DNA of 64,000 bases from Balamuthia mandrillaris (lineage: Eukaryota): positions 62,001 to 126,000 of the forward strand of contig JAVKOQ020000113.1 in the NCBI GenBank assembly GCA_031835245.2, read 5' to 3'. The position numbers were made by a program, and so were the translations under genes. Below, in pieces: positions 1 to 49,218 of this stretch (the stretch's first letter is position 1; the number at the start of each line of letters is the position of its first letter). The notes beneath the pieces are model-generated. The model was given only the letters and a program-made list of their open reading frames with translations, was not told where the DNA came from and did not search any database.

Positions 1-2420
1 GGGGTGATGACAGTAGTTGTTGAGTCTTTGTAAATTCCTCTATAGACATCACCTGCTGGATCCTCCAGACCATACAGTTGAAGGGTTTTGAAGATAGCTT
101 TTTGAGTCAAAGGCTTTTTGTATATCTACATATTGAGTATGCAATGGGTGATTGTGAGAGGCTGCATCCTCTATGATGCATCTCAGGGCTGTGATGTTGG
201 AGTGGGTAGAGTGGTTTTTCCTAAAGCCGGATTGATAGGTAGAGAGGATATTTGCCTTGTGGAGGGCTTCTTCTAAGCGTTGTTGGATGAGTTTGGTGTA
301 TACCTTGTAGATAATAGTACATAAGGCAATTGGTCTGTAGTTCATTGAAAGATCGGGGTTCCTTTAAAGATTAGGAATATTTTTGTAGTGTTCCACTCCT
401 GTGGAAGTTCTTTCTTCTTGTGTACTTCATTGAGGGAGTCAAGGAAAGAGGAGAGGTTATAGTCATCTGTGAGTTTGAGTAGCTCTGCTATGACGTTATC
501 ACTACCTAGGGCAGAGTCATTCTTGAGTGTTTTTATACACATTTTTAGTTCCTGCATAGAGAATAGAGCTATTATTTGGTTTGTTGCTTCTGGGTGCATT
601 TTCTTTTGGAGAGATTGCCAGTAGCAGTTGTTATCAATATCAGGTGGGAGGGGACGTTCTTTGTACATGTTTTCCTAGAAGCGGCCTACATTTTTAGTGA
701 TTTTTTCTGGGGTCACAGATGTTTTTGTAGTATTATCTTTTGCTAAGTAAGTGACACGATTTTGTTGACCTTCTTCCTTAAGTGAGGAGAGGTTCTTGAA
801 TTTTTTGAAAAAGAGTTTTGAGGCTTTGTTGCTTGCTTTTATTATGTGTTGGACATTTAGCTGTGTGATTTTTCCTTTTCTTTTGCTTCATGAGTTTTCT
901 GTATTCACTATTTAGTCTTTTGAGTTTTGAAAGGGCTTCTGTTATCCAGTTAGGGTCATCTAGATGGAGGGGCATTATTGCTCTATTTCTCTTGTAGTCT
1001 TTTTTCCTCCATTCCTTTTCTCCACAGAAGCTCTTGATGAGTTTGTGGAGGCGATTCTTTTGTTGAATTGTTTTTCCTAACTCTGGAATTGAGAGTGGGT
1101 GTTTTATTTGTTTGGGAGGTGGAAGGGCCTTTTTGGCAGCATTAACATATTTAAGCATAATATTATGAGGGTTTGTTGGAGTTATATCAAGTTCTATTCC
1201 AAGTAGTGTGTTAAAGTATTCTGTGTCTTCTGTGGAGGGTTTTCTTTGATAAGGAGGCGTTTCTTTGGGATGATTGGCTTAGTACATTGAAGGTTTATTG
1301 TGGCAGTGATAGGTTTATGGTCTGTTGAAATGTTTGTTTTACCATGTTTAGTGAAAATGAGTTTTTCAATTCTTTCTGTAAGAAAGTAGTCTATGCGAGT
1401 CCTTTGTGTGTATTTTCTGGTAGAGATGTATTGTTCACGGGTAGGTGTTCTAAGGTTGTCATTGAAATGTAAAAATGCGTCCTGTAGGTTATGGCGTTCT
1501 TTAAACTGGGAAAAGTTTTTATTAGGTTTGCCATTTCCATTGGAGTTATCATGAGGGAAATCATATGCATTGAGGTCTCCACATACTGTTATTGGATTTT
1601 TGTTTTCAAGACTGGTAAGGTAATTGTTGATGTCTCCATTCCAAAATAGTTTATTTTCTGTTCTGTTTGCTGGAGCATATATGTTGACCAAGATTAGCTT
1701 TTCAAGTTCTGAGTTACTTAGCTTTTTTGCTATCACCCTGTCTTTAATGTTGTCTGGTGGGGGTTGTAAGGGTTGGATCTATCCTGCTAGATAGGATGGA
1801 AAGATGAAAGCAACTCCTCTGTGGTTGTTTTTGTCTGTTGGAGTACTAGAGGTTATTGTAGTAAGGTTTTTTGGGACAGACCTAGTCCATTTTTGTGTTT
1901 AAGTTGCACATTCCTGTAGACAAAGGATATCAATACTATGTTTTTTTTGCATTTTTAAGAGTTCAGGGAGTTTATTGGAGATTCCTCCTCTAATATTGAG
2001 GGAGGTTATTTTGTTTGTCATGGAGAGAGGAGAAGAGGGAGAAGGAGTTAATGAGTTACTATTTGTCTCTATAGCTTTTAGGTCTGTCCTTTTTGAGTGA
2101 AATAAAGGCTGGTCTTTTCCTCTCTGGGTAGCTAAAGGAGACTAATATTGCAGAGGCCAGTGCTCGGGATTCAAAGGTAACATAGCCAAAGTCTCTACTC
2201 TGTTTTCTGGATCTCTTTTAATTTCCACCTGTGCAAAGTTGAGTCCTTTTGCTGTCATTTGCTCACTAAGGGTCTTTTTGTTCATGTATGGGAGAAGGAA
2301 GCCTATCCAACTGACCGTTTGTTGAGAAAGTACAACATGGAAGGACAGTGGAGAAAGATCTTCGGAATGGCTCAGTATCGACATAAAAGATCGATGATAG
2401 CTGACATCAGATTGTCGACA
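1..2420 (-). mobile_element. Decayed non-LTR retrotransposon (L1/Tx1-like, APE endonuclease + RT), runs off the left window edge
   Basis: ORF2 starts near 2021 (MTNKITSLNIRG). APE motifs LVNIYAP, CGDLN, RIDYFL, TDHKPI in 1194-1736. RT motifs NYRPIAL, QSGFR, VDIQKAFD in 49-345. Broken by stops and frameshifts; 5' limit uncertain. Confidence 0.88.
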
Positions 2421-4722
2421 AAAAAGAGAAAAGAATGAAGAAAGGAATGAAGAAAGAGTTGGTTATGTTGGAGTAAACGAATATAGAGATCATGGGCAGC
2501 AAGTTGGAAGTATGGAAGTTCTTCTACATTCCATCAACACCTTTCACTTGTGATAGTTAACAATTAGGAAGGCATCGAGGATGAGGGAATAAGAGAAGTA
2601 AATGTACACTGAGTATGTATAGTGCTTACTTTTTATGTAGTGTTTAGTGTTGCTCCTTGAGCAAATGAACTTTTTATTGTAATAAGGTTGATAGGGAACA
2701 ACCTAATAGACATTAACTTGATAGGTGTAAGGAAAAGACCTTTAATAGAGTGAAAGAAAGAAGTATATATACAAGGAGAGATAGGAATAGGTATTCTGGG
2801 AGAGTGGTATAACATTATTATTATTACTACCTTAGACAATAGAATATCTTTTGCTCAAGTATATTTAGAATTAAATAGATTGAAAAACAAAATCTGTACC
2901 AACAATCAGTTATTTATTACTTTATCAAATGTTCTTAGGTTCTAAGCTAAAGAAAGCTCCAGGGAAAGCAGGAAAAAGATCTTTAGAATGGCTTAGTGTC
3001 AATAAAAGATCAATGATGGCTAATGTTAAGTTCTCATAATTTCCAATGCTTTTGCCCTTCATCAAAAAGCTCCTTTGTAGCTTTTTTTGCTCTATTTCTT
3101 TATTTATTAATTTGCAAAAAATAGTACTAAGAAAAGAGGCAAGAGAGTGATTGTTTCTAATGCATTAAATTGGCTCAAAAAGAAAGAAACAACAAGAAAC
3201 AACATAAAAGAAAAAAATGACAAGAAAGAAAGAAACCTTATCTTATCAGGTTATGGCAGTTTGTACTACAAAGTTACTATCATCAAGTGAAAAGAAATGC
3301 TAGACAAAGTACAAAAAAAATAGAACTATGCAAGTGATGTTATGCATCTAATTGGATTGAACTTTCTATTACTCTTGAATATCAAGTATATCACTTGGTG
3401 ACAATTAATTCTGTGGTTGTAGCTCTTCTCACTGAGCAAGTGAGAATATTGTGGCTAGTTTTATCACATTTGCAACTTTATGTTTGCCACCTCATTCTCC
3501 TCCTTTTCCACCACTGTTATTGCCACTGTGCCTGTGAGTAAGAGCCCAAGCTTTGGTGGTTGACTTATGGATTTGCAAGGAAGGAACATAGCAATGGAAA
3601 TAGGTGTTAAAAAAACTCCAAAGTAATCACCTTCACCTGGGACACTTATAAGCTTTCTCATCAAAACAAAAACAGTGAGAAGGATATAGTCTGTGGCATG
3701 GATATTCAGCCCGTGGCACCTGTAGTTAGGATGTTCAGCCTGCTGGAAGGATATTGGCCTGGTAAAGATATGGCGTGTGAGAGAGATATTCAGCCTGCAA
3801 TAGAGAGTTTCGGCCTGTGACACAGATGTGTGGGGATAGGGCCTGCTGCATGGCTCTTCAGCCTGCAGCACAGATATAAGGCCTGTTGTATGGCTATTTG
3901 GCGCAAGAGGATATCAAGGGACAGCATCCTGTTAAGGAAGATTGACAGCATCCTGGGATTGGGTATCATTGAGGGGCAGTGTCTTGTCTTTGAGGAGGAG
4001 GAGCATCGTCCTGTGGAACTTGGTGAGGAGGAGTGGTAGCATCCTTGTTGAGGACAGCATGATGCTTAGGAGCATTCCATGGGAGGAGTATCATCCTGGC
4101 AACAAAGGGCGGCCTGTAAAAGAGGAGTGGTGGTGCTAGCACCCCTTTGAGAAAGAGGAGCAGCGTGATGTCCAAGAAGAGGAACATCCTGCCAGGGGCC
4201 GCCTCCTGTTGTGCACAGTTGTTTGAGAAGAAAGAATACATTGGTTGGCTCTTAACTTCAACTCCACTCAAGAAGGGAAAAGCACCAAGAAGAAGAAGTT
4301 TTTTGGACCACTAAAAGTGAAGGAAAGTGACTGGCCAAAATCACAGAAAGGACATACATCATCTCTAAGCACACAAATCCCAACCCCACTACTGCACTAT
4401 GGTAGCGAGCAGAGCTTGTGGGTTGTTTTTTTCAGGAGGCATTGAGGTTAGCATCCAAAAAAAAAAATCAAGCCATCCTTTCCACGTTGAGTGCCTTTCC
4501 TGATTTCAACACAAAAGAGGGGTCAACATTCTGGTATCTCAACCAAAGGAAACAAATAGGTCTTTTTTGTGCCCGTAGTAACACACAACAAAAGGACTTG
4601 GCGTGTGACTTTATAGAGTGGCCCACACCACCAGAGCAAAAATCTTGGAAACTTGAGTCACTAAAATAAAGCAAAATTAGTAAAAGGAAAACAAAAAAAC
4701 AGACACAAAAAATAACCCACCT

Positions 4723-4840
4723 CCGGCGTGCCTAATCACGGCTTATCTTACGACTCGCTATAAGCAACGGTGCCGGCACCAAAGCAACCTTACCGCCTAC
4801 CGCCCCCTCACAGAGGAGGAGGAGGAGGTGGTAAGTGCTT
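4723..4840 (-). ncRNA. Putative omega-RNA scaffold of Fanzor copy 1
   Basis: Same hairpins as 48876-48993; overlaps the ORF 3' end as in TnpB/Fanzor loci. Confidence 0.6.
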
Positions 4841-6548
4841 GTAAAGTGAAAAAGCGGATCAAGATGTTTCGGGCGGCGTTGGCATCTCGATCCGCCTGGT
4901 AGCCACACTCGGGTTGAGGGCACCGAAAGGTCTTGTTTCCCCCCAACTGGTGGTGGACTTGGCCGCACTTGCCGCAGGTCTTGGAGGTGTATTCCTCATC
5001 GCAGAGGCAGACCGTACAGGACGGAAATTGCTGGGCCTTGTTGAGGAGCCTCTGCCTGAAGCGATAGTGGGACCAGGTGAGCATGGCTCTGGCCGTTCGC
5101 GAGCCAATGCGGCGGTGGCCTCGCCGCACCATCTGCTGGCTCCTGAACTCTGGCAGAAGGATGAGGGAGAAGTTCCTGACCAACCAAGACACGAGCTTCT
5201 TGTGGAGGTCATCCACCAGGTTGCGGATCCTCTGGCGAAGCCGAGCAGCGGCCCTTCGGAGACGGCGCCGTTGTCTGTGGTTGACCTTGGTGCCCTTACT
5301 CTGCATGCGGTCCAGGCGGTGGCACAGCTTGCCTATCTCGTTGATGTCCGCTTTGCCCCACTCGGTGACCTCCCCGCAGCCGTTGTAGGTGGTCATGAAT
5401 GTGCGCACTCCTGGATCCAAGGCGATGATGCCTGCCTCTCTCCTTCGGTGCTCACGGGCTTGGCTCTCGCCCATGAGCTTCAAAGGCTGAGGCACGCAGA
5501 GGTAGTAATGGCCCAGTCGAGTGTCCTTCACCAGACGAACGGCATAGAGCACCTCTGACGGAACTTTGTAGTTCTTGTCCCTCGCTTTGATTCGCGCCTC
5601 CCCGAAGAAGAGTTGGCGGATAGAGCTGTTGTGGTTCCACTCCCTGGCTTGGATGCTGAGAGACTGGCTCTTGTCCTTCCTACCACGGAACTTCATCTGG
5701 AATCCAGTCGTGCCTCTGCCCGCCGCCAAGCTGCTTTTCACGCCGTTGAAGAAATCATCGACAGCGTCACTCCGAATGAATCGAGGAGTTTCCAACACCC
5801 ACGCAAGGCTCTTGTCCTCTCCCTTGAAATTGCTGTTATTTAGGAATTTCTTCCTGACTTGTTCCTTCATCTCATCACGAGGCATTCCTTGATGTTCACG
5901 ATGGAACTCCACGGCCTTGTTGTAGGTCCATCGTACTGTGCCGAACCACTTGGCCAACGTCTTCTTTTGTTCCGGGCGCGGATAAAGGCGGATCTTCTCC
6001 ACTCGCCCCACTACCGGTTTCTCCTCTCCGTTCTTGCCTTTTTTGGTAAGCTGTACGGCTGGGCGAGACGGAACGAGTCCCTCGATGAGGCCTAACAAGC
6101 CTTTCTGGTTTTTCTCCTCTTCTTCCTTCTCCTTCTCCTTCTCCTTCTCCTTCTCCTCTTCCTCTTCCTCCTTCTTCTCCTTCTCCTTCTTCTCCTCCTC
6201 CTCCTCCAACACCTTTTCTCCGTTAGGAATGTGCTTGCAGGCGGTGAACCATCCTGAACCACAGGCAAAGGGTTCTTCCAAGCACAAGGCTTCCGGGCGT
6301 ATTAATCTTCTCCCGATTAAGCTGGAAAACTGGTTCCAAAAGGGCTGGGCGGGTGCAGCCTGCGGCCTTCCACGCTTCTGTGCCCTTGCCTGAGGTGCCG
6401 CTGGGGCGTTTTCCGCTCTTCTTTTCCGAGTAGCAGTGGAAGTAGCAGAAGTAGTGGCGCGACCCCCTTCCTTGTGGACCCGACCGAAGTGGATGGCCAA
6501 CCCGTGAGAGGTAGCAAACTTTTTTCCGCACTGTGGGCAACTTGCCAT
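4797..6548 (-). CDS. Fanzor2 / TnpB-family RNA-guided endonuclease, 583 aa, intronless
   Basis: TnpB-type N-terminal KIRLYP..WFGTVRWTYN; RuvC-I ALDPGVRTF; RuvC-II LLPEF; MLTWSHYRFRQRL; Zn ribbon CGKC..CPQPEC; RuvC-III DRDANAARNI. Confidence 0.95.
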   Translation of the reverse strand: MASCPQCGKKFATSHGLAIHFGRVHKEGGRATTSATSTATRKRRAENAPAAPQARAQKRGRPQAAPAQPFWNQFSSLIGRRLIRPEALCLEEPFACGSGWFTACKHIPNGEKVLEEEEEKKEKEKKEEEEEEKEKEKEKEKEEEEKNQKGLLGLIEGLVPSRPAVQLTKKGKNGEEKPVVGRVEKIRLYPRPEQKKTLAKWFGTVRWTYNKAVEFHREHQGMPRDEMKEQVRKKFLNNSNFKGEDKSLAWVLETPRFIRSDAVDDFFNGVKSSLAAGRGTTGFQMKFRGRKDKSQSLSIQAREWNHNSSIRQLFFGEARIKARDKNYKVPSEVLYAVRLVKDTRLGHYYLCVPQPLKLMGESQAREHRRREAGIIALDPGVRTFMTTYNGCGEVTEWGKADINEIGKLCHRLDRMQSKGTKVNHRQRRRLRRAAARLRQRIRNLVDDLHKKLVSWLVRNFSLILLPEFRSQQMVRRGHRRIGSRTARAMLTWSHYRFRQRLLNKAQQFPSCTVCLCDEEYTSKTCGKCGQVHHQLGGNKTFRCPQPECGYQADRDANAARNILIRFFTLQALTTSSSSSVRGR

Positions 6549-7289
6549 TCAGGCCAGCTTCCAGCAGCGTTGTGGAAGAGGCGCACAGAGGTTCGTGATG
6601 CTGTTCTTTTTTAAACAAAAGAAATCATTAGTGAGTGGTTGGTAACAATTTTTTTTTCCATCATCAAAAAATGTAGTGAGCGAGCAGAGAAAAAAGAACG
6701 CTACCTTTTCAATCGGAGCAGTGCCCCTGCCTGCGGCTGAACCGCTTCGGTTTCCACCTCTGCCTCCTTCGGCTGGTTTCCTCCTTGTGTAGTAGAAGCG
6801 TAGCAATGAGAAATACGGTGGTGCGTGGAGCTTCGTGGATGTGTGTGTCTGTGTGTTTACTTTTGAAAAGAAAGAAATGAAAAGAAAAGAAGAAAAGAAA
6901 AGAAAAGAAGAGAAGAAAAGAAAACGAGTAGCAGAAAAGTGTCAAGGCGAATGACGAGTACCAAAAGTTTATTGGCGGCAGCAGCAGCATGAGCATCCAT
7001 TCCGTACACCCCAACCCACCACTTTGCCTTCAAAGGCGTGGGAGAAGGAAGGGTTGTTTTGGCGGGAAACATGCTCATTGGCCCAAAAGACTAATGTCGT
7101 GATTTCTTTTTTCGTTGTCCTTAGATCTTATGATCTTTGCGCCGCCTTATCATTGATATATGCACTGGGACTTTATCCAGGCTTTCCATTATACCTACGA
7201 GGTTGAGGGTCCAAGCTTGGCAATAATAGTTTTGGGTTTGCGACGCCAAAGAAAGAGAGAGAGCAAGAGAGCAAGAGAGCAAGAGGAAG

Positions 7290-35067: not shown

Positions 35068-38000
35068 CTAAGGGAGTGTATAAGTGATGAGGTAGTCAGG
35101 GTAGGCGTGGTTAAGAGTGTAAATCATGAAGACCTTGCTACCGTTCGTGTGGCCAGAGACGCTGTCATAGTCCTCCACAAAGCCAAGCGAGTTAGAGGTA
35201 CTTTTTTGTGGCGGTTTGGTGAGAGCCCGGTTGCTCTGTAGCTCAACGTTGTCACCTACCAACACCTTGACGAGGAACATCTGTTTGAGATTATCGCTGG
35301 TGGTGTGGGCATAGTCGTGGGAGTAGCTTGCGTTGAGAGCAAAGTAATTGGCCAGACCCCATAAGCCCTGACGACCGGAAACGCGCATATCGAAGCCCTC
35401 CTGTCCGTTGTAAATGCAAGAGGGATGGGCAGTGCGTGTACCATGGAAGAGAAGGCACTCGTTGGCATCCCCTCCGTTCTTAAGAATAAGAACGGAGATG
35501 GCCTTGCAGTTGGCGTATTTCTCCCACAGCCATTTGTTTTGCACTCGCTCAACGCTGCGGATGGAGACCGTCGGCATCGTGATCTTCATTTGTTTCTCCA
35601 CTTGCTGCCACTCCTCACCAGTCGGCTGGATGGGGACCAGCACACAGGTTTGGGTTTGTGGCTCCCATTGTCGTGGGAATGCTACCCTGTGGGATCCGAT
35701 GGCCTTGTAGACCAGAGGGGTTATTTCGGATTTGGCCTGTTGGAGGGTGCTTTTGGGGCCTTCGAGCTGAAGCGCGGGAGAACCATCCAACTTCTTGCAA
35801 ACGCTTATTGTCACGAAGAATCTCTGGGCAGTTCTCTCAAGTTCCTCAAGGTGGGCGTTGGTGAGCTCTCCTGGCAGCTCGAGTTGAGTGGTCGAGCGTT
35901 GCTTTTGCAGCAATGTTTCGAATTTGCTTAGCCCTTTGGAGAGTTCCGTTTTGAGCCCAATGAGTTCCACCGGCACCATCTTTACCCGTTCTTCCGCCTG
36001 GAGGCGTGGCGTTTGAGTGCCATCGTCTTTAGCTCTATCACCACTGCTGGCCTCAATGTAATCCAGCAGTTCCTGTTCCAGGTTGCGTGCCCTCCGCCGC
36101 ATACGATAACGGGTGCCGCTGGCATCAATGATGTTATGAGCAAAGATGGCTTTACATTGCACCGCGTGCCAACTGAAAAGAACCTCAGTAAAGTTGCGAT
36201 TCACAGCAATCTCCAGCTGTTGCTGTTCCATGGGACCAAGCGCCTCCCACCCTGCTGAGGTTTCAACCTCCCACACGAACTGGCTGGCAACGTCCTTGGG
36301 GGTACGTTTGATGGGTCTTGGGTTGGCTCGGTACTTTGTGTTGATCTCGGGCATGGCGTCGAAGTCGATCTCATAGGTGAACCCGTTCTTTTGTTTGAGG
36401 AGGTCGCCTGTGACCTCCACCTTGCCTCTTCCCTGCTGCTTGTTGTAGGCCACTTCAATCTGGTAATTCTGGTCTGGATCAAAGTCGGTGAAGGTGCCAT
36501 CATTTTCTCGCCAAGACCACTGATAGGCCAGTTCTTCAGGAGCTTTCAGCTGGGACACAGTCCGCACCTTGCACGTCTGTCGCAAGTTTTTGGCTTCTTC
36601 GTGCAGGTTGGCTTGCCAGAGGGCCACCACGGACGGCTTTACGTCGCACAGCCTAATGGTCTGCAAGGTGGAAGCCGTATTACGTGTCAGGTATGTCAAT
36701 ACAGCCTTCACTATCGTTTCAGCGCAGAGAGCCTCCGGAATGCCATAGATCCCAGAGCCGTTAGCGGGGAGCGAAACAGATTGCCAACCCTGTCCATCCG
36801 CCTCTCTGAGTGAGGCCGTAACTGCCTTTTGCAACAGCAGCAGCTCCTTCTCGCCTCCATTTCCCCAAATTGGAGCAACGGCGTGGATCACCCCTTTGAT
36901 GGGAGATGGGAGATCCCCTGCAGTGGTTACCACCGCTTCTCCTGTCGCAACTTGGCTGCGTTGCTGAATGAGGCGCTCACATTCCTCCCTGAGAGCATTA
37001 CCGGCTTTATCTGCAATCTTCTTAGCAACGCCGCCTACATGGTTAAGCTTACTATTGGCAGCGTTGACGATGCACTCCACTTGCTCCTTCAGCAGATTGC
37101 CCTCCACGACTTGAACGGTGCAGGTGCGGTCAGAGAGAGCCCTATACGTCAGCTCAGCAATCACTCGATTCTTGTCATGCTCCGGGAAGTTGAGATAGAT
37201 GCCAGTTTCGTTGAAGAACTTGTGCGCCTTCCGCCAACCATTCTTCGTGAAATTCCTTGCCACAATTGTGAGAATCTATTTTGCAACCAAGAATGACAAA
37301 AGCAACCTCGTCAGAAAAAAGCTAGCTAGCTTTCAGAAGAAAATAGAGATAAATAACCTGTGTTGTCTTCGTGCCAACAGCGGCGCGCAAGTCTTGCAGC
37401 AGATCCTGAAGCGCGCGTCGTGCGGTTTTAACGTTGTCTGGAGTTCCACGCAAAAAGATCTCTCCACTTCTGAGCTTGTGTTGACGGGCAAAGGCCACAT
37501 GGCACTGCTTTTGTATGTCCATATAGCGTCGATTGAAAGTTGACACCTGTCTGTTCTCCAACAGGTTGTGAAGATAGGGGGGAGTGAAGCCAAAGGGCTC
37601 TGATATCACTCTTGTATTTGCCAGTAAAGCTTGTAACGCTTGAACAGCTTCGGTTGCATCATCTGGATTGCGTGACCTCAACTCGACAGCCTTGTTGTCG
37701 TCATCCAGTCTCAACCACGTGAGGTTCCATTCCTTTTTGAATTTGTAGAGATCGATCTTCTTTTCTTTCCATATTAACCTAGCAAGCTGGGTGTAGGTGG
37801 AGGGGTCTTCGGGCTTCCAAACCATAGGTCCTGCGCAGAGTTTTTTGATCTCGTCTTCTACTTCTGCTATCATTTTGTCGTTGGTACCAAGTATTGTGAT
37901 CTGCATAATAAGCTAAACCTATAAGTCGTACGTCCCTCAAAGTCATGGAGGAGGTGGAGGAGGAGGGGGTACCGTGAAGCCCTTTGTTCTGCTTTCCTCA

Positions 38001-46432: not shown

Positions 46433-46516
46433 GCAAGAGTGCCCGAGCTGGTCAAAGGGGGTAGACTTAAGATCTACTGCGGTAACGCTTCGTGGGTTCG
46501 AACCCCACCTCTTGCA
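46433..46516 (+). tRNA. tRNA-Leu(TAA)
   Basis: Acceptor GCAAGAG/CTCTTGC, anticodon arm GTAGA-CTTAAGA-TCTAC, long variable arm, T arm GTGGG-TTCGAAC-CCCAC, T5 terminator just downstream. Confidence 0.95.
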
Positions 46517-47179
46517 ACATTCTTTTTATACTTTCTCAATTCAGGGATTTCGAGAATCGTGTCGTCCCAAGAGTTTTGCCTGGCAGGGTTGCCCCTAAGG
46601 CGGCGCAAAGATCATAAGATCTAAGGACAACGAAAAAAGAAATCACGACATTAGTCTTTTGGGCCAATGAGCATGTTTCCCGCCAAAACAACCCTTCCTT
46701 CTCCCACGTCTCTGAAGGCAAAGTGGTAGGGTGGGGTGTACGGAATGGATGCTCATGCTGCTGCTGCCGCCAATAAACTTTTGGTACTCGTCATTCGCCT
46801 TGACACTTTTCTGCTACTCGTTTTCTTTTCTTCTCTTCTTTTCTTTTCATTTCTTTCTTTTCAAAAGTAAACACACAGACACACACATCCACGAAGCTCC
46901 ACGCACCACCGTATTTCTCATTGCTACGCTTCTACTACACAAGGAGGAAACCAGCGGAAGGAGGCAGAGGTGGAAACCGAAGCGGTTCAGCCGCAGGCAG
47001 GGGCACTGCTCCGATTGAAAAGGTAGTGTTCTTTTTTCTCTGCTCGCTCACTACATTTTTTGATGATGGAAAAAAAAATGTGTTACCAACCTCTCGCTAA
47101 TGATTTCTTTTGTTTAAAAAAGAACAGCATCACGAACCTCTGTGCGCCTCTTCCACAACGCTGCTGGAAGCTGGCCTGA

Positions 47180-48919
47180 ATGGCAAGTTGCCCACAGTGC
47201 GGAAAAAAGTTTGCTACCTCTCACGGGTTGGCCATCCACTTCGGTCGGGTCCACAAGGAAGGGGGTCGCGCCACTACTTCTGCTACTTCCACTGCTACTC
47301 GGAAAAGAAGAGCGGAAAACGCCCCAGCGGCACCTCAGGCAAGGGCACAGAAGCGTGGAAGGCCGCAGGCTGCACCCGCCCAGCCCTTTTGGAACCAGTT
47401 TTCCAGCTTAATCGGGAGAAGATTAATACGCCCGGAAGCCTTGTGCTTGGAAGAACCCTTTGCCTGTGGTTCAGGATGGTTCACCGCCTGCAAGCACATT
47501 CCTAACGGAGAAAAGGTGTTGGAGGAGGAGGAGGAGAAGAAGGAGAAGGAGAAGAAGGAGGAAGAGGAAGAGGAGAAGGAGAAGGAGAAGGAAGAAGAGG
47601 AGAAAAACCAGAAAGGCTTGTTAGGCCTCATCGAGGGACTCGTTCCGTCTCGCCCAGCCGTACAGCTCACCAAAAAAGGCAAGAACGGAGAGGAGAAACC
47701 GGTAGTGGGGCGAGTGGAGAAGATCCGCCTTTATCCGCGCTCAGAACAAAAGAAGACGCTGGCCAAGTGGTTCGGCACAGTACGATGGACCTACAACAAG
47801 GCCGTGGAGTTCCATCGTGAACATAAAGGAATGCCTCTTAAGGAGATGAAGGAACAAGTCAGGGAGAAATTCCTGAATAACGGCAATTTCAACGGAGAGG
47901 ACAAGAGCCTTGCGTGGGTGTTGGAAACTCCTCGATACATTCGCAGTGACGCTGTCGATGATTTCTTCAACGGCGTGAAAAGCAGCTTGGCGGCGGGCAG
48001 AGGCACGACTGGATTCCAGATGAAGTTCCGTGGTAGGAAGGACAAGAGCCAGTCTCTCAGCATCCAAGCCAGGGAGTGGAACCACAACAACTCTATCCGC
48101 CAACTCTTCTTCGGGGAGGCGCGAATCAAAGCGAGGGACAAGAACTACAAAGTTCCGTCAGAGGTGCTCTATGCCGTTCGTCTGGTGAAGGACACTCGAC
48201 TGGGCCATTACTACCTCTGCGTGCCTCAGCCTTTGAAGCTCATGGGCGAGAGCCAAGCCCGTGAGCACCGAAGGAGAGAGGCAGGCATCATCGCCTTGGA
48301 TCCAGGAGTGCGCACATTCATGACCACCTACAACGGCTGCGGGGAGGTCACCGAGTGGGGCAAAGCGGACATCAACGAGATAGGCAAGCTGTGCCACCGC
48401 CTGGATCGCATGCAGAGTAAGGGCACCAAGGGCAACCACAGGCAACGGCGCCGTCTCCGAAGGGCCGCTGCTCGGCTTCGCCAGAGGATCCGCAACCTGG
48501 TGGATGACCTCCACAAGAAGCTCGTGTCTTGGTTGGTCAGGAACTTCTCCCTCATCCTTCTGCCAGAGTTCAGGAGCCAGCAGATGGTGCGGCGAGGCCA
48601 CCGCCGCATTGGCTCACGAACGGCCAGAGCCATGCTCACCTGGTCCCACTATCGCTTCAGGCAGAGGCTCCTCAACAAGGCCCAGCAATTTCCGTCCTGT
48701 ACGGTCTGCCTCTGCGATGAGGAATACACCTCCAAGACCTGCGGCAAGTGCGGCCAAGTCCACCACCAGTTGGGGGGAAACAAGACCTTTCGGTGCCCTC
48801 AACCCGAGTGTGGCTACCAGGCGGATCGAGATGCCAACGCCGCCCGAAACATCTTGATCCGCTTTTTCACTTTACAAGCACTTACCACCTCCTCCTCCTC
48901 CTCTGTGAGGGGGCGGTAG
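47180..48919 (+). CDS. Fanzor2 / TnpB-family RNA-guided endonuclease, 579 aa
   Basis: Same motifs as copy 1; RuvC D, E and D all present. Confidence 0.95.
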   Translation: MASCPQCGKKFATSHGLAIHFGRVHKEGGRATTSATSTATRKRRAENAPAAPQARAQKRGRPQAAPAQPFWNQFSSLIGRRLIRPEALCLEEPFACGSGWFTACKHIPNGEKVLEEEEEKKEKEKKEEEEEEKEKEKEEEEKNQKGLLGLIEGLVPSRPAVQLTKKGKNGEEKPVVGRVEKIRLYPRSEQKKTLAKWFGTVRWTYNKAVEFHREHKGMPLKEMKEQVREKFLNNGNFNGEDKSLAWVLETPRYIRSDAVDDFFNGVKSSLAAGRGTTGFQMKFRGRKDKSQSLSIQAREWNHNNSIRQLFFGEARIKARDKNYKVPSEVLYAVRLVKDTRLGHYYLCVPQPLKLMGESQAREHRRREAGIIALDPGVRTFMTTYNGCGEVTEWGKADINEIGKLCHRLDRMQSKGTKGNHRQRRRLRRAAARLRQRIRNLVDDLHKKLVSWLVRNFSLILLPEFRSQQMVRRGHRRIGSRTARAMLTWSHYRFRQRLLNKAQQFPSCTVCLCDEEYTSKTCGKCGQVHHQLGGNKTFRCPQPECGYQADRDANAARNILIRFFTLQALTTSSSSSVRGR

Positions 48920-48993
48920 GCGGTAAGGTTGCTTTGGTGCCGGCACCGTTGCTTATAGCGAGTCGTAAGACAAGCCGTGATTAGGCACGCCGG
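48876..48993 (+). ncRNA. Putative omega-RNA scaffold of Fanzor copy 2
   Basis: Long hairpin 48876-48934 across the stop codon, then ggtg-ccgg-cacc, gtc-GTAA-gac and cgtg-attagg-cacg. Confidence 0.62.
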
Positions 48994-49218
48994 AGGTGGG
49001 TTGTTTTTTGTGTCTGTTTTTTTGTTTTCCTTTTTACTAATTTTGCTTTATTTTCGTTGTCCCATTGATCGGCTTGATCTTTGCGCCGCCTTAGGGTTGC
49101 CCCACAAAAACCCTAACCCTTGCCGCTGAGCGAGTCGTAAGAAGGGATGGAATTTATTTTCTGAATCATTTTTTTTATTATTATTAACGTTAATAATAAT
49201 ATAAGTAATGTGTTACTA

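What the first reader, a model, noticed from the sequence alone, without database searches (positions are those of the whole stretch)
46586..49103. Intact Fanzor2 nuclease inside a TIR transposon with a 10-bp target duplication
Seen: the only long ORF is a TnpB/Fanzor2-type nuclease with intact RuvC D-E-D. It is bounded by 19-bp perfect TIRs that extend imperfectly to about 40 bp (shared gatc and ggacaacgaaaa) and by gggttgcccc on both sides. Established: Fanzor2 derives from IS607 TnpB and is classically linked to a serine recombinase without TIRs or TSDs; 9-10 bp TSDs are typical of Mutator-type (also IS4-type) DDE transposases. Inference: a young non-autonomous cut-and-paste family that captured Fanzor2 and is mobilised in trans, so a candidate new eukaryotic RNA-guided system.
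Basis: partly seen in the sequence, partly recalled or inferred. Interest (0 to 1): 0.88.

Follow-up and report, generated by a model that had tools for sequence, protein, structure and literature searches.

The report
Amoeba Fanzor2 riding a Mutator-like transposon
A small jumping element, likely from the amoeba Balamuthia, carries an intact gene for a Fanzor2-type nuclease (predicted to be RNA-guided) without the recombinase gene its relatives use to move; it has inverted-repeat ends and a 10-base insertion scar that likely point to a Mutator-type enzyme encoded elsewhere, which makes it a new variant of an already described kind of capture.

Summary
The element spans 46596-49093 with 19-bp perfect TIRs (imperfect to about 40 bp) and a 10-bp direct repeat on both sides. 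Its 579-aa ORF is a Fanzor2: D374-E514-D551 intact, best structural match ApmFz2, far above Fanzor1. Twelve near-identical protein records named Balamuthia mandrillaris show a multicopy family. Close relatives are IS607 elements (15 of the top 20 loci carry TnpA); this element has no TnpA trace.

The concept is already published: Yoon 2023 named TIR/TSD-borne Fanzor2s 'Fanzor2*'. Not found in what I could read: an amoebozoan case, a 10-bp Mutator-range duplication, an N-terminal C2H2 finger, and two REC-domain haplotypes that differ at positions aligning with ApmFz2's TAM-reading residues.

Unverified: the duplication length rests on one complete copy. No transposase, guide RNA or activity was shown, and the genome was unavailable. 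Verdict: new variant of a known kind, interest 0.45.

The parts
46586..46595 (.). left copy of the 10-bp target duplication
46596..46636 (+). left TIR (19 bp perfect, imperfect to about 40 bp)
   Evidence: same start base in copy 2
47180..48919 (+). Fanzor2 ORF, 579 aa, intact
47186..47254 (+). N-terminal C2H2 zinc-finger motif (residues 3-25), followed by basic, NLS-like stretches (NLS reading inferred)
   Evidence: Pfam zf-C2H2 E 7.7e-5, 23.4 bits against a cutoff of 25.2; motif only in this family among 135 proteins; no outside homologue among 55 candidates
47825..47938 (+). REC stretch, residues 216-253, polymorphic between copies; N238 and Y253 align with ApmFz2 TAM-reading R194 and H215
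   Evidence: alignment columns are low-confidence
48299..48832 (+). RuvC triad D374 (48299-48301), E514 (48719-48721), D551 (48830-48832) and C4 zinc finger
48885..49093 (+). inferred omegaRNA scaffold region, including the right TIR; structure not established
   Evidence: position by analogy; folding tests inconclusive
49055..49093 (-). right TIR (perfect part 49075-49093)
49094..49103 (.). right copy of the 10-bp target duplication; likely the start of the flank-derived guide
   Evidence: guide role inferred
4663..7149 (-). second copy, 97.5% identical, intact 583-aa ORF at 4797-6548, left TIR intact, last 39 bp missing

Best explanation
This is a young, multicopy 2.5-kb element with terminal inverted repeats and a 10-bp duplication that carries an intact Fanzor2 gene and no transposase, and it is likely moved by cut-and-paste by a Mutator-type transposase encoded elsewhere, with the nuclease predicted to protect it by restorative homing. 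Shown: the ends, the duplication in one copy, the Fanzor2 identity, the loss of the IS607 recombinase that relatives carry, and a second copy. Inferred history: an IS607 Fanzor2 lost tnpA, came to lie between TIRs and gained a C2H2 finger. Inferred function: a transcript running through the right end gives a guide RNA whose guide comes from the flank. After excision the nuclease would cut the emptied site, and repair from the sister chromatid would copy the element back. With a long, probably variable duplication the guide most likely starts at or near the first duplicated base. Otherwise the motif (TAM) and the target would both be present at the element's own right junction.
For: Ends and duplication. 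Copy 2 fixes the left end. Family size: 12 protein records on contigs of 12 different lengths. Fanzor2 identity: PDB profile search gives ApmFz2 E 2.7e-47 and no Fanzor1 entry among 27 hits at E<=1; Foldseek gives ApmFz2 rank 1, E 1.2e-20, and SpuFz1 rank 34, E 6.9e-6. Tree: inside a 38-row clade (SH-aLRT 99) that includes TnpA-bearing loci. TnpA is present in 77 of 130 related loci with enough upstream DNA and in 15 of the top 20, and absent from all six frames of the window at E<=1. Mutator TSDs are 8-11 bp and TIRs 14-500 bp; one group has 10-bp TSD with 40-bp TIR, another a C2H2 finger (PMC6446971 passages). Both window ORFs are intact; outside the REC patch 5 of 8 differing codons are synonymous. 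Homing model: PMC13565253 section 6.2.
Against: Only one copy shows a duplication. No genome was held, so no transposase and no other flanks were seen. No guide RNA was shown: no Rfam hit; the 3' region folds no better than shuffles (z 0.11; z -2.2 for a chosen sub-stretch); pairing of the right TIR with the inner 3' region is not significant (237 of 1000 shuffles and 78 of 1062 control windows do as well). The CCTA hairpin seen in 5 of 17 close IS607 loci is absent. Most of the named records are truncated or frameshifted as annotated. The TIRs start with T, whereas Mutator ends usually start with G (recalled). The host is inferred from the element's protein only; two host-gene checks gave no named match.
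Confidence: 0.6

Rival explanations
1. Passenger model: the TIR element is real and mobile, but the Fanzor2 has no working guide RNA and is intact only because the family is young.
For: The IS607-type hairpin is missing. Folding tests are not significant. Copies are 97.5% identical. Many named records are broken as annotated.
Against: Two of two window copies keep full ORFs with all catalytic and zinc residues. Outside REC, 5 of 8 differing codons are synonymous. The best identity to any outside protein in the tree is 48%, so the gene stayed open through long divergence.
Confidence: 0.2
2. The mobiliser is another DDE family (hAT-, IS4- or Merlin-like, 8-bp duplication), and the true TIR is 20 bp.
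For: Copy 1 alone fits TIR20/TSD8 exactly. Fanzors in IS4-type elements with 18-bp TIRs and 8-bp TSDs, and associations with hAT, are published.
Against: Copy 2 has A, not C, at the base that a 20-bp TIR needs. At about 2.5% divergence between the copies, a mutation at that one base is unlikely.
Confidence: 0.13
3. The element still moves by recombination (IS607 serine recombinase or a Crypton-like tyrosine recombinase in trans), and the direct repeat is a crossover site rather than a target duplication.
For: Relatives are IS607 elements. The repeat has GGG...CCC symmetry, and IS607 inserts at GG/GGG (PMC10711439).
Against: IS607 elements lack TIRs and TSDs. Copy 2's left flank is unrelated to the repeat and has no GGG at the junction, so the site is not fixed.
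Confidence: 0.05

Closest known systems
Fanzor2* elements of Chloropicon primus and molluscs (Yoon et al. 2023, PMC10711439)
   Same: Fanzor2 with DPG and shifted catalytic E inside a TIR/TSD cut-and-paste element, with no IS607 recombinase.
   Different: Host is likely amoebozoan ('Balamuthia' has 0 hits in that paper's supplement text). The duplication is 10 bp, but the lengths in that paper are in figures I could not see. N-terminal C2H2 finger. Those proteins were not in my tree, so independent capture is untested.
IS607-type Fanzor2 (ApmFz2/ISvMimi, ACa-1; Bao and Jurka 2013, PMC3627910; Schargel 2024, PMC11832414)
   Same: Same protein architecture and catalytic triad; best sequence and structure match.
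   Different: No TnpA, true TIRs and a duplication, and no IS607-type CCTA hairpin in the 3' region.
MuDR-type Fanzor1 elements ROr-4 and PBl-3 (Bao and Jurka 2013)
   Same: Transposase-free elements with about 40-bp TIRs (38 and 42 bp) and 9-bp TSDs that carry a Fanzor.

Membership tests
Fanzor2 | RuvC1 DPG motif and catalytic E next to the zinc finger | tested here: met
   D374-P-G and E514 in DEEYTSKTC; definition
Fanzor2 | closer to IS607 TnpB/ApmFz2 than to Fanzor1 | tested here: met
   the tree had no Fanzor1 rows, so this rests on the PDB searches
Fanzor2 | omegaRNA at the right end with a pseudoknot | tested here: inconclusive
   one 5-mer at 48924 is complementary to the last 5 nt of the element, but the predicted fold buries it in a stem
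Fanzor2 | RNA-guided, TAM-dependent DNA cleavage | not testable with these tools
   no assay possible
IS607 element | serine recombinase TnpA | tested here: not met
   TnpA HMM finds nothing in six frames of the window at E<=1
IS607 element | no TIRs, no TSD | tested here: not met
Fanzor2* (Fanzor2 in a eukaryotic cut-and-paste transposon) | Fanzor2 between TIRs with a target duplication, multicopy | tested here: met
   duplication seen in 1 of 2 copies, the other being truncated
Mutator/MULE | 8-11-bp TSD of variable sequence | tested here: inconclusive
   10 bp in one copy; range; copy 2 has a different flank but no readable right end
Mutator/MULE | MULE DDE transposase in the element or in a TIR-sharing partner | not testable with these tools
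   none in the element; genome not held; N-terminal search found only the family itself; TIR scan of viral contigs gave one isolated 18-mer match

The most novel reading that the evidence does not exclude
A Fanzor2 captured by a Mutator-type element that inserts without a fixed target is diversifying its TAM-reading surface. The two REC haplotypes, each in about half of the copies, would read different flanking motifs so that the family covers many insertion sites. The guide would begin inside the 10-bp duplication, unlike the published model in which the duplication is part of the scaffold. That would be a natural panel of TAM variants and a new solution to self-cleavage.
Probability: 0.2. 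Interest if true: 0.75.

Novelty: new variant of a known kind. Interest (0 to 1): 0.45.

Why it matters
Captures of Fanzor2 by eukaryotic cut-and-paste transposons are the proposed intermediates on the way to Fanzor1 (PMC10711439). This one likely adds an amoebozoan case with a long duplication. That length strains the current model: if the duplication sat in the RNA scaffold (PMC10711439, PMC13565253), a 3-nt TAM inside a 10-bp duplication would also lie at the element's own right junction. If instead the guide starts in the duplication, the left junction offers TAM plus a 10-nt match, just under the 11-13-nt guide lengths at which Fanzor activity plateaus (PMC10432273). The family's flanks, sorted by REC haplotype, make this question answerable from the genome sequence alone.

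Tried and rejected
1) A piggyBac-like reading (22-bp TIR starting CCC, 4-bp TSD) was rejected because copy 2 lacks the CCC. 2) Whole-genome search was not possible, and sequencing reads were not available, so flanks of other copies and expression stay open. 3) Autonomous partner: residues 1-70 found only the family (2 hits among 55 candidates, 318-1014 aa only). The TIR scan of viral contigs gave one isolated match with no element context in the 221 bases read. 4) TIRs around relatives: 13 of 159 loci had an exact inverted match of 13 nt or more; by eye none was bounded by a direct repeat, and only L015 has long TIRs. 5) The idea that the right TIR pairs with the inner 3' region: it pairs better than a left-TIR version would (-28.0 vs -19.4 kcal/mol) but is not significant against controls. 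6) The idea that the insertion site is a guide-RNA 'ghost': the overall alignment is not significant (96 of 1000 shuffles, 445 of 2142 windows, whose pre-insertion model carried one extra base), and only the exact 14-mer stands out. 7) Positive selection in REC: amino-acid changes cluster there (p 2e-5 and 2e-4), but the nonsynonymous/synonymous contrast with the rest is not significant (Fisher p 0.15), so conversion from a diverged subfamily is not excluded. 8) Host confirmation by a host gene failed. 9) ESM Atlas gave only TnpB clusters at 0.81. 10) Paper searches added nothing on this family; Repbase and Dfam could not be checked.

Full report
Observation. The element runs from 46596 to 49093. 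Its ends are 19-bp perfect inverted repeats, and the terminal 50 nt align at about 41 of 52 columns. The 10-mer GGGTTGCCCC flanks it on both sides. Because that 10-mer begins GGG and ends CCC, this copy alone also fits a 20-bp TIR with an 8-bp duplication, 21 with 6, or 22 with 4. A search with the TIR found a third match at 7131-7152. It is the left end of a second copy on the minus strand, 7149-4663, 97.5% identical, with an intact 583-aa ORF. It starts at the same T but in a different flank, which supports the 19/10 reading. It lacks the last 39 bp, essentially the whole right TIR, next to a decayed LINE (endonuclease and reverse transcriptase fragments). Neither its right TIR nor a second copy of its flank 10-mer is in the window. 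The duplication length therefore rests on one of two copies.

Protein. The 579-aa ORF has the TnpB HTH, OrfB and zinc-ribbon domains and the two Fanzor fingerprints defined by Yoon et al.: DPG at D374 and the shifted glutamate E514. D551 and the zinc cysteines are intact. ApmFz2 is the best PDB hit by sequence (E 4.6e-27; profile E 2.7e-47, with no Fanzor1 entry among 27 hits at E<=1). It is also the best hit by structure: the model (mean pLDDT 75) gives ApmFz2 at rank 1, E 1.2e-20, and SpuFz1 at rank 34, E 6.9e-6. In a quick IQ-TREE tree of 58 hand-picked rows (the query, 24 of the 120 listed homologues, 33 of 239 loci), the protein sits on a long branch in a 38-row clade (SH-aLRT 99). Cyanobacterial relatives lie outside that clade and five distant prokaryotic TnpBs served as outgroup. 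No Fanzor1, Chloropicon or mollusc row was available. Residues 3-25 form a C2H2 finger (E 7.7e-5, just under Pfam's cutoff). It occurs only in this family among 135 proteins; the two regex hits among 158 locus ORFs look like C-terminal zinc ribbons.

Host and family. The closest database proteins are 78-95% identical and named Balamuthia mandrillaris. Their clusters hold 12 records on contigs of 12 different lengths, most truncated or frameshifted as annotated. The exact window proteins are not on record. Two checks with host genes gave no named match, so the host is inferred from the element alone. No genome was held.

Origin. Among 159 related metagenomic and viral loci, 82 carry an IS607 TnpA by an HMM built here: 77 of the 130 with at least 500 bp upstream, and 15 of the top 20. 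The same HMM finds nothing in the six frames of the window at E<=1. None of these loci shows this element's TIR-plus-duplication layout (flanks judged by eye). The element thus derives from an IS607 Fanzor2 that lost its recombinase and now lies between TIRs; this step is inferred.

Mobiliser. Mutator elements have 8-11-bp TSDs and 14-500-bp TIRs; TvMULE has 9-11 bp with 20-38-bp TIRs, MULE-Mucorales 10 bp with 40-bp TIRs, and Spectre a C2H2 finger (PMC6446971). This fits, but no partner transposase was found and the decisive genome search was impossible.

Guide RNA. By analogy it should span the 3' end and read into the flank. There is no Rfam hit. The region 48890-49110 folds like its shuffles (z 0.11), and a chosen sub-stretch gives z -2.2. 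A CCTA hairpin occurs in 5 of 17 close loci and a TAGGCG-like motif in 11 of 17 (patterns chosen by eye). The hairpin is absent here. One 5-mer at 48924, at the equivalent place, is complementary to the element's last five bases, which could be a rebuilt pseudoknot, but the predicted fold puts it in a stem and the TIR-pairing test was not significant. The RNA is therefore not established.

REC polymorphism. The two window ORFs differ at 17 codons, 10 nonsynonymous and 7 synonymous. Seven of the 10 amino-acid changes fall in residues 216-253 (binomial p 2e-5 for REC 206-271). Across 12 rows (the two copies and 10 named records), 10 of 17 shared polymorphic positions in residues 140-500 lie in REC (p 2e-4), forming two haplotypes of about equal frequency. 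ApmFz2 reads its TAM with R194, H215 and E260 (PMC11832414). Read by hand through the profile alignment, these fall on N238, Y253 and Q296; the first two are polymorphic and the third is not. Those columns have low posterior support, the N/S contrast is not significant (Fisher p 0.15), and gene conversion from a diverged subfamily such as P0004 could give the same pattern. This is a lead, not a result.

Mechanism. Most likely a transposase acting in trans excises the element, and the Fanzor2, guided by flank-derived RNA, cuts the emptied site so that repair restores the copy (model in PMC13565253 section 6.2). A 10-bp duplication forces a choice. If it belongs to the scaffold, as reported for short duplications, TAM and target both sit at the element's right junction. 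If it begins the guide, the left junction carries TAM plus a 10-nt match. I favour the second; it is inferred.

What is known. Fanzor2 in TIR/TSD elements is published as 'Fanzor2*' and repeated in a 2026 review. MuDR-type elements with Fanzor1 are published too. 'Fanzor' with 'Balamuthia' gave 0 papers. 'Balamuthia' gave 0 hits in the supplement text of four surveys. These are weak negatives: two files and one were not searched, the Jiang supplement text also lacks 'Acanthamoeba castellanii', and the figure with the Fanzor2* TSD lengths is not held. Repbase and Dfam were not checked.

Papers seen. PMC3627910: passages and supplement hits. PMC10711439: abstract, first third of Results, passages, supplement search and one supplement part. 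PMC10530073 and PMC10432273: passages and supplement search. PMC11832414: parts 1-2 of 5. PMC13565253: passages and section 6.2. PMC6446971: passages. The statement that Mutator ends usually start with G is recalled.

Verdict. Real and correctly described; a new variant of a known kind. Interest 0.45, rising to about 0.75 if the REC haplotypes prove to read different flanking motifs.

Noticed in passing
window 49129-49142 and 48957-48970: An exact 14-mer in the right flank, 36 bp past the element's end, also occurs in the element's inner 3' region. 0 of 1429 random 97-bp windows reach 12 nt against that region, but 1 of 133 400-bp windows shares a 14-mer with the whole element. Possibly chance, possibly a relic of a related guide-RNA region.
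   Followed up: partly
window 22750-23520 (+): Decayed, frameshifted relic of a different Fanzor2-like gene, with a 24-bp 96% inverted repeat (22715-22738 / 23444-23467) whose second arm lies in the zinc-finger coding part.
   Followed up: partly
window 1-4660 (-): Decayed LINE-type retrotransposon (endonuclease 1197-1778, RT 52-363) directly after the truncated right end of copy 2; whether it disrupted the TIR is unknown.
   Followed up: partly
window 46433-46516 (+): tRNA-Leu(TAA) gene about 70 bp upstream of the insertion; no tRNA near copy 2, so no sign of tRNA targeting.
   Followed up: partly
window 46746-47180 (+): Public gene models of other copies splice GT-AG introns here and add an upstream reading that skips the C2H2 finger; an in-frame stop lies right before ATG 47180. 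The true transcript is unknown.
   Followed up: no
window 46580-46585 and 7160-7167: The bases just outside the putative duplication read GCA in copy 1, and GCA in copy 2 if its duplication were 11 bp; a weak hint at a TAM from two sites.
   Followed up: no
L015:1-1325: A decayed Fanzor2 fragment between inverted repeats of at least 188 bp (86%) in a metagenomic contig; perhaps another capture by a long-TIR element.
   Followed up: partly
window 35068-37275 (-): Macro/PARP-like host gene; best hit 42% to an unnamed record, then mammalian PARP15.
   Followed up: no
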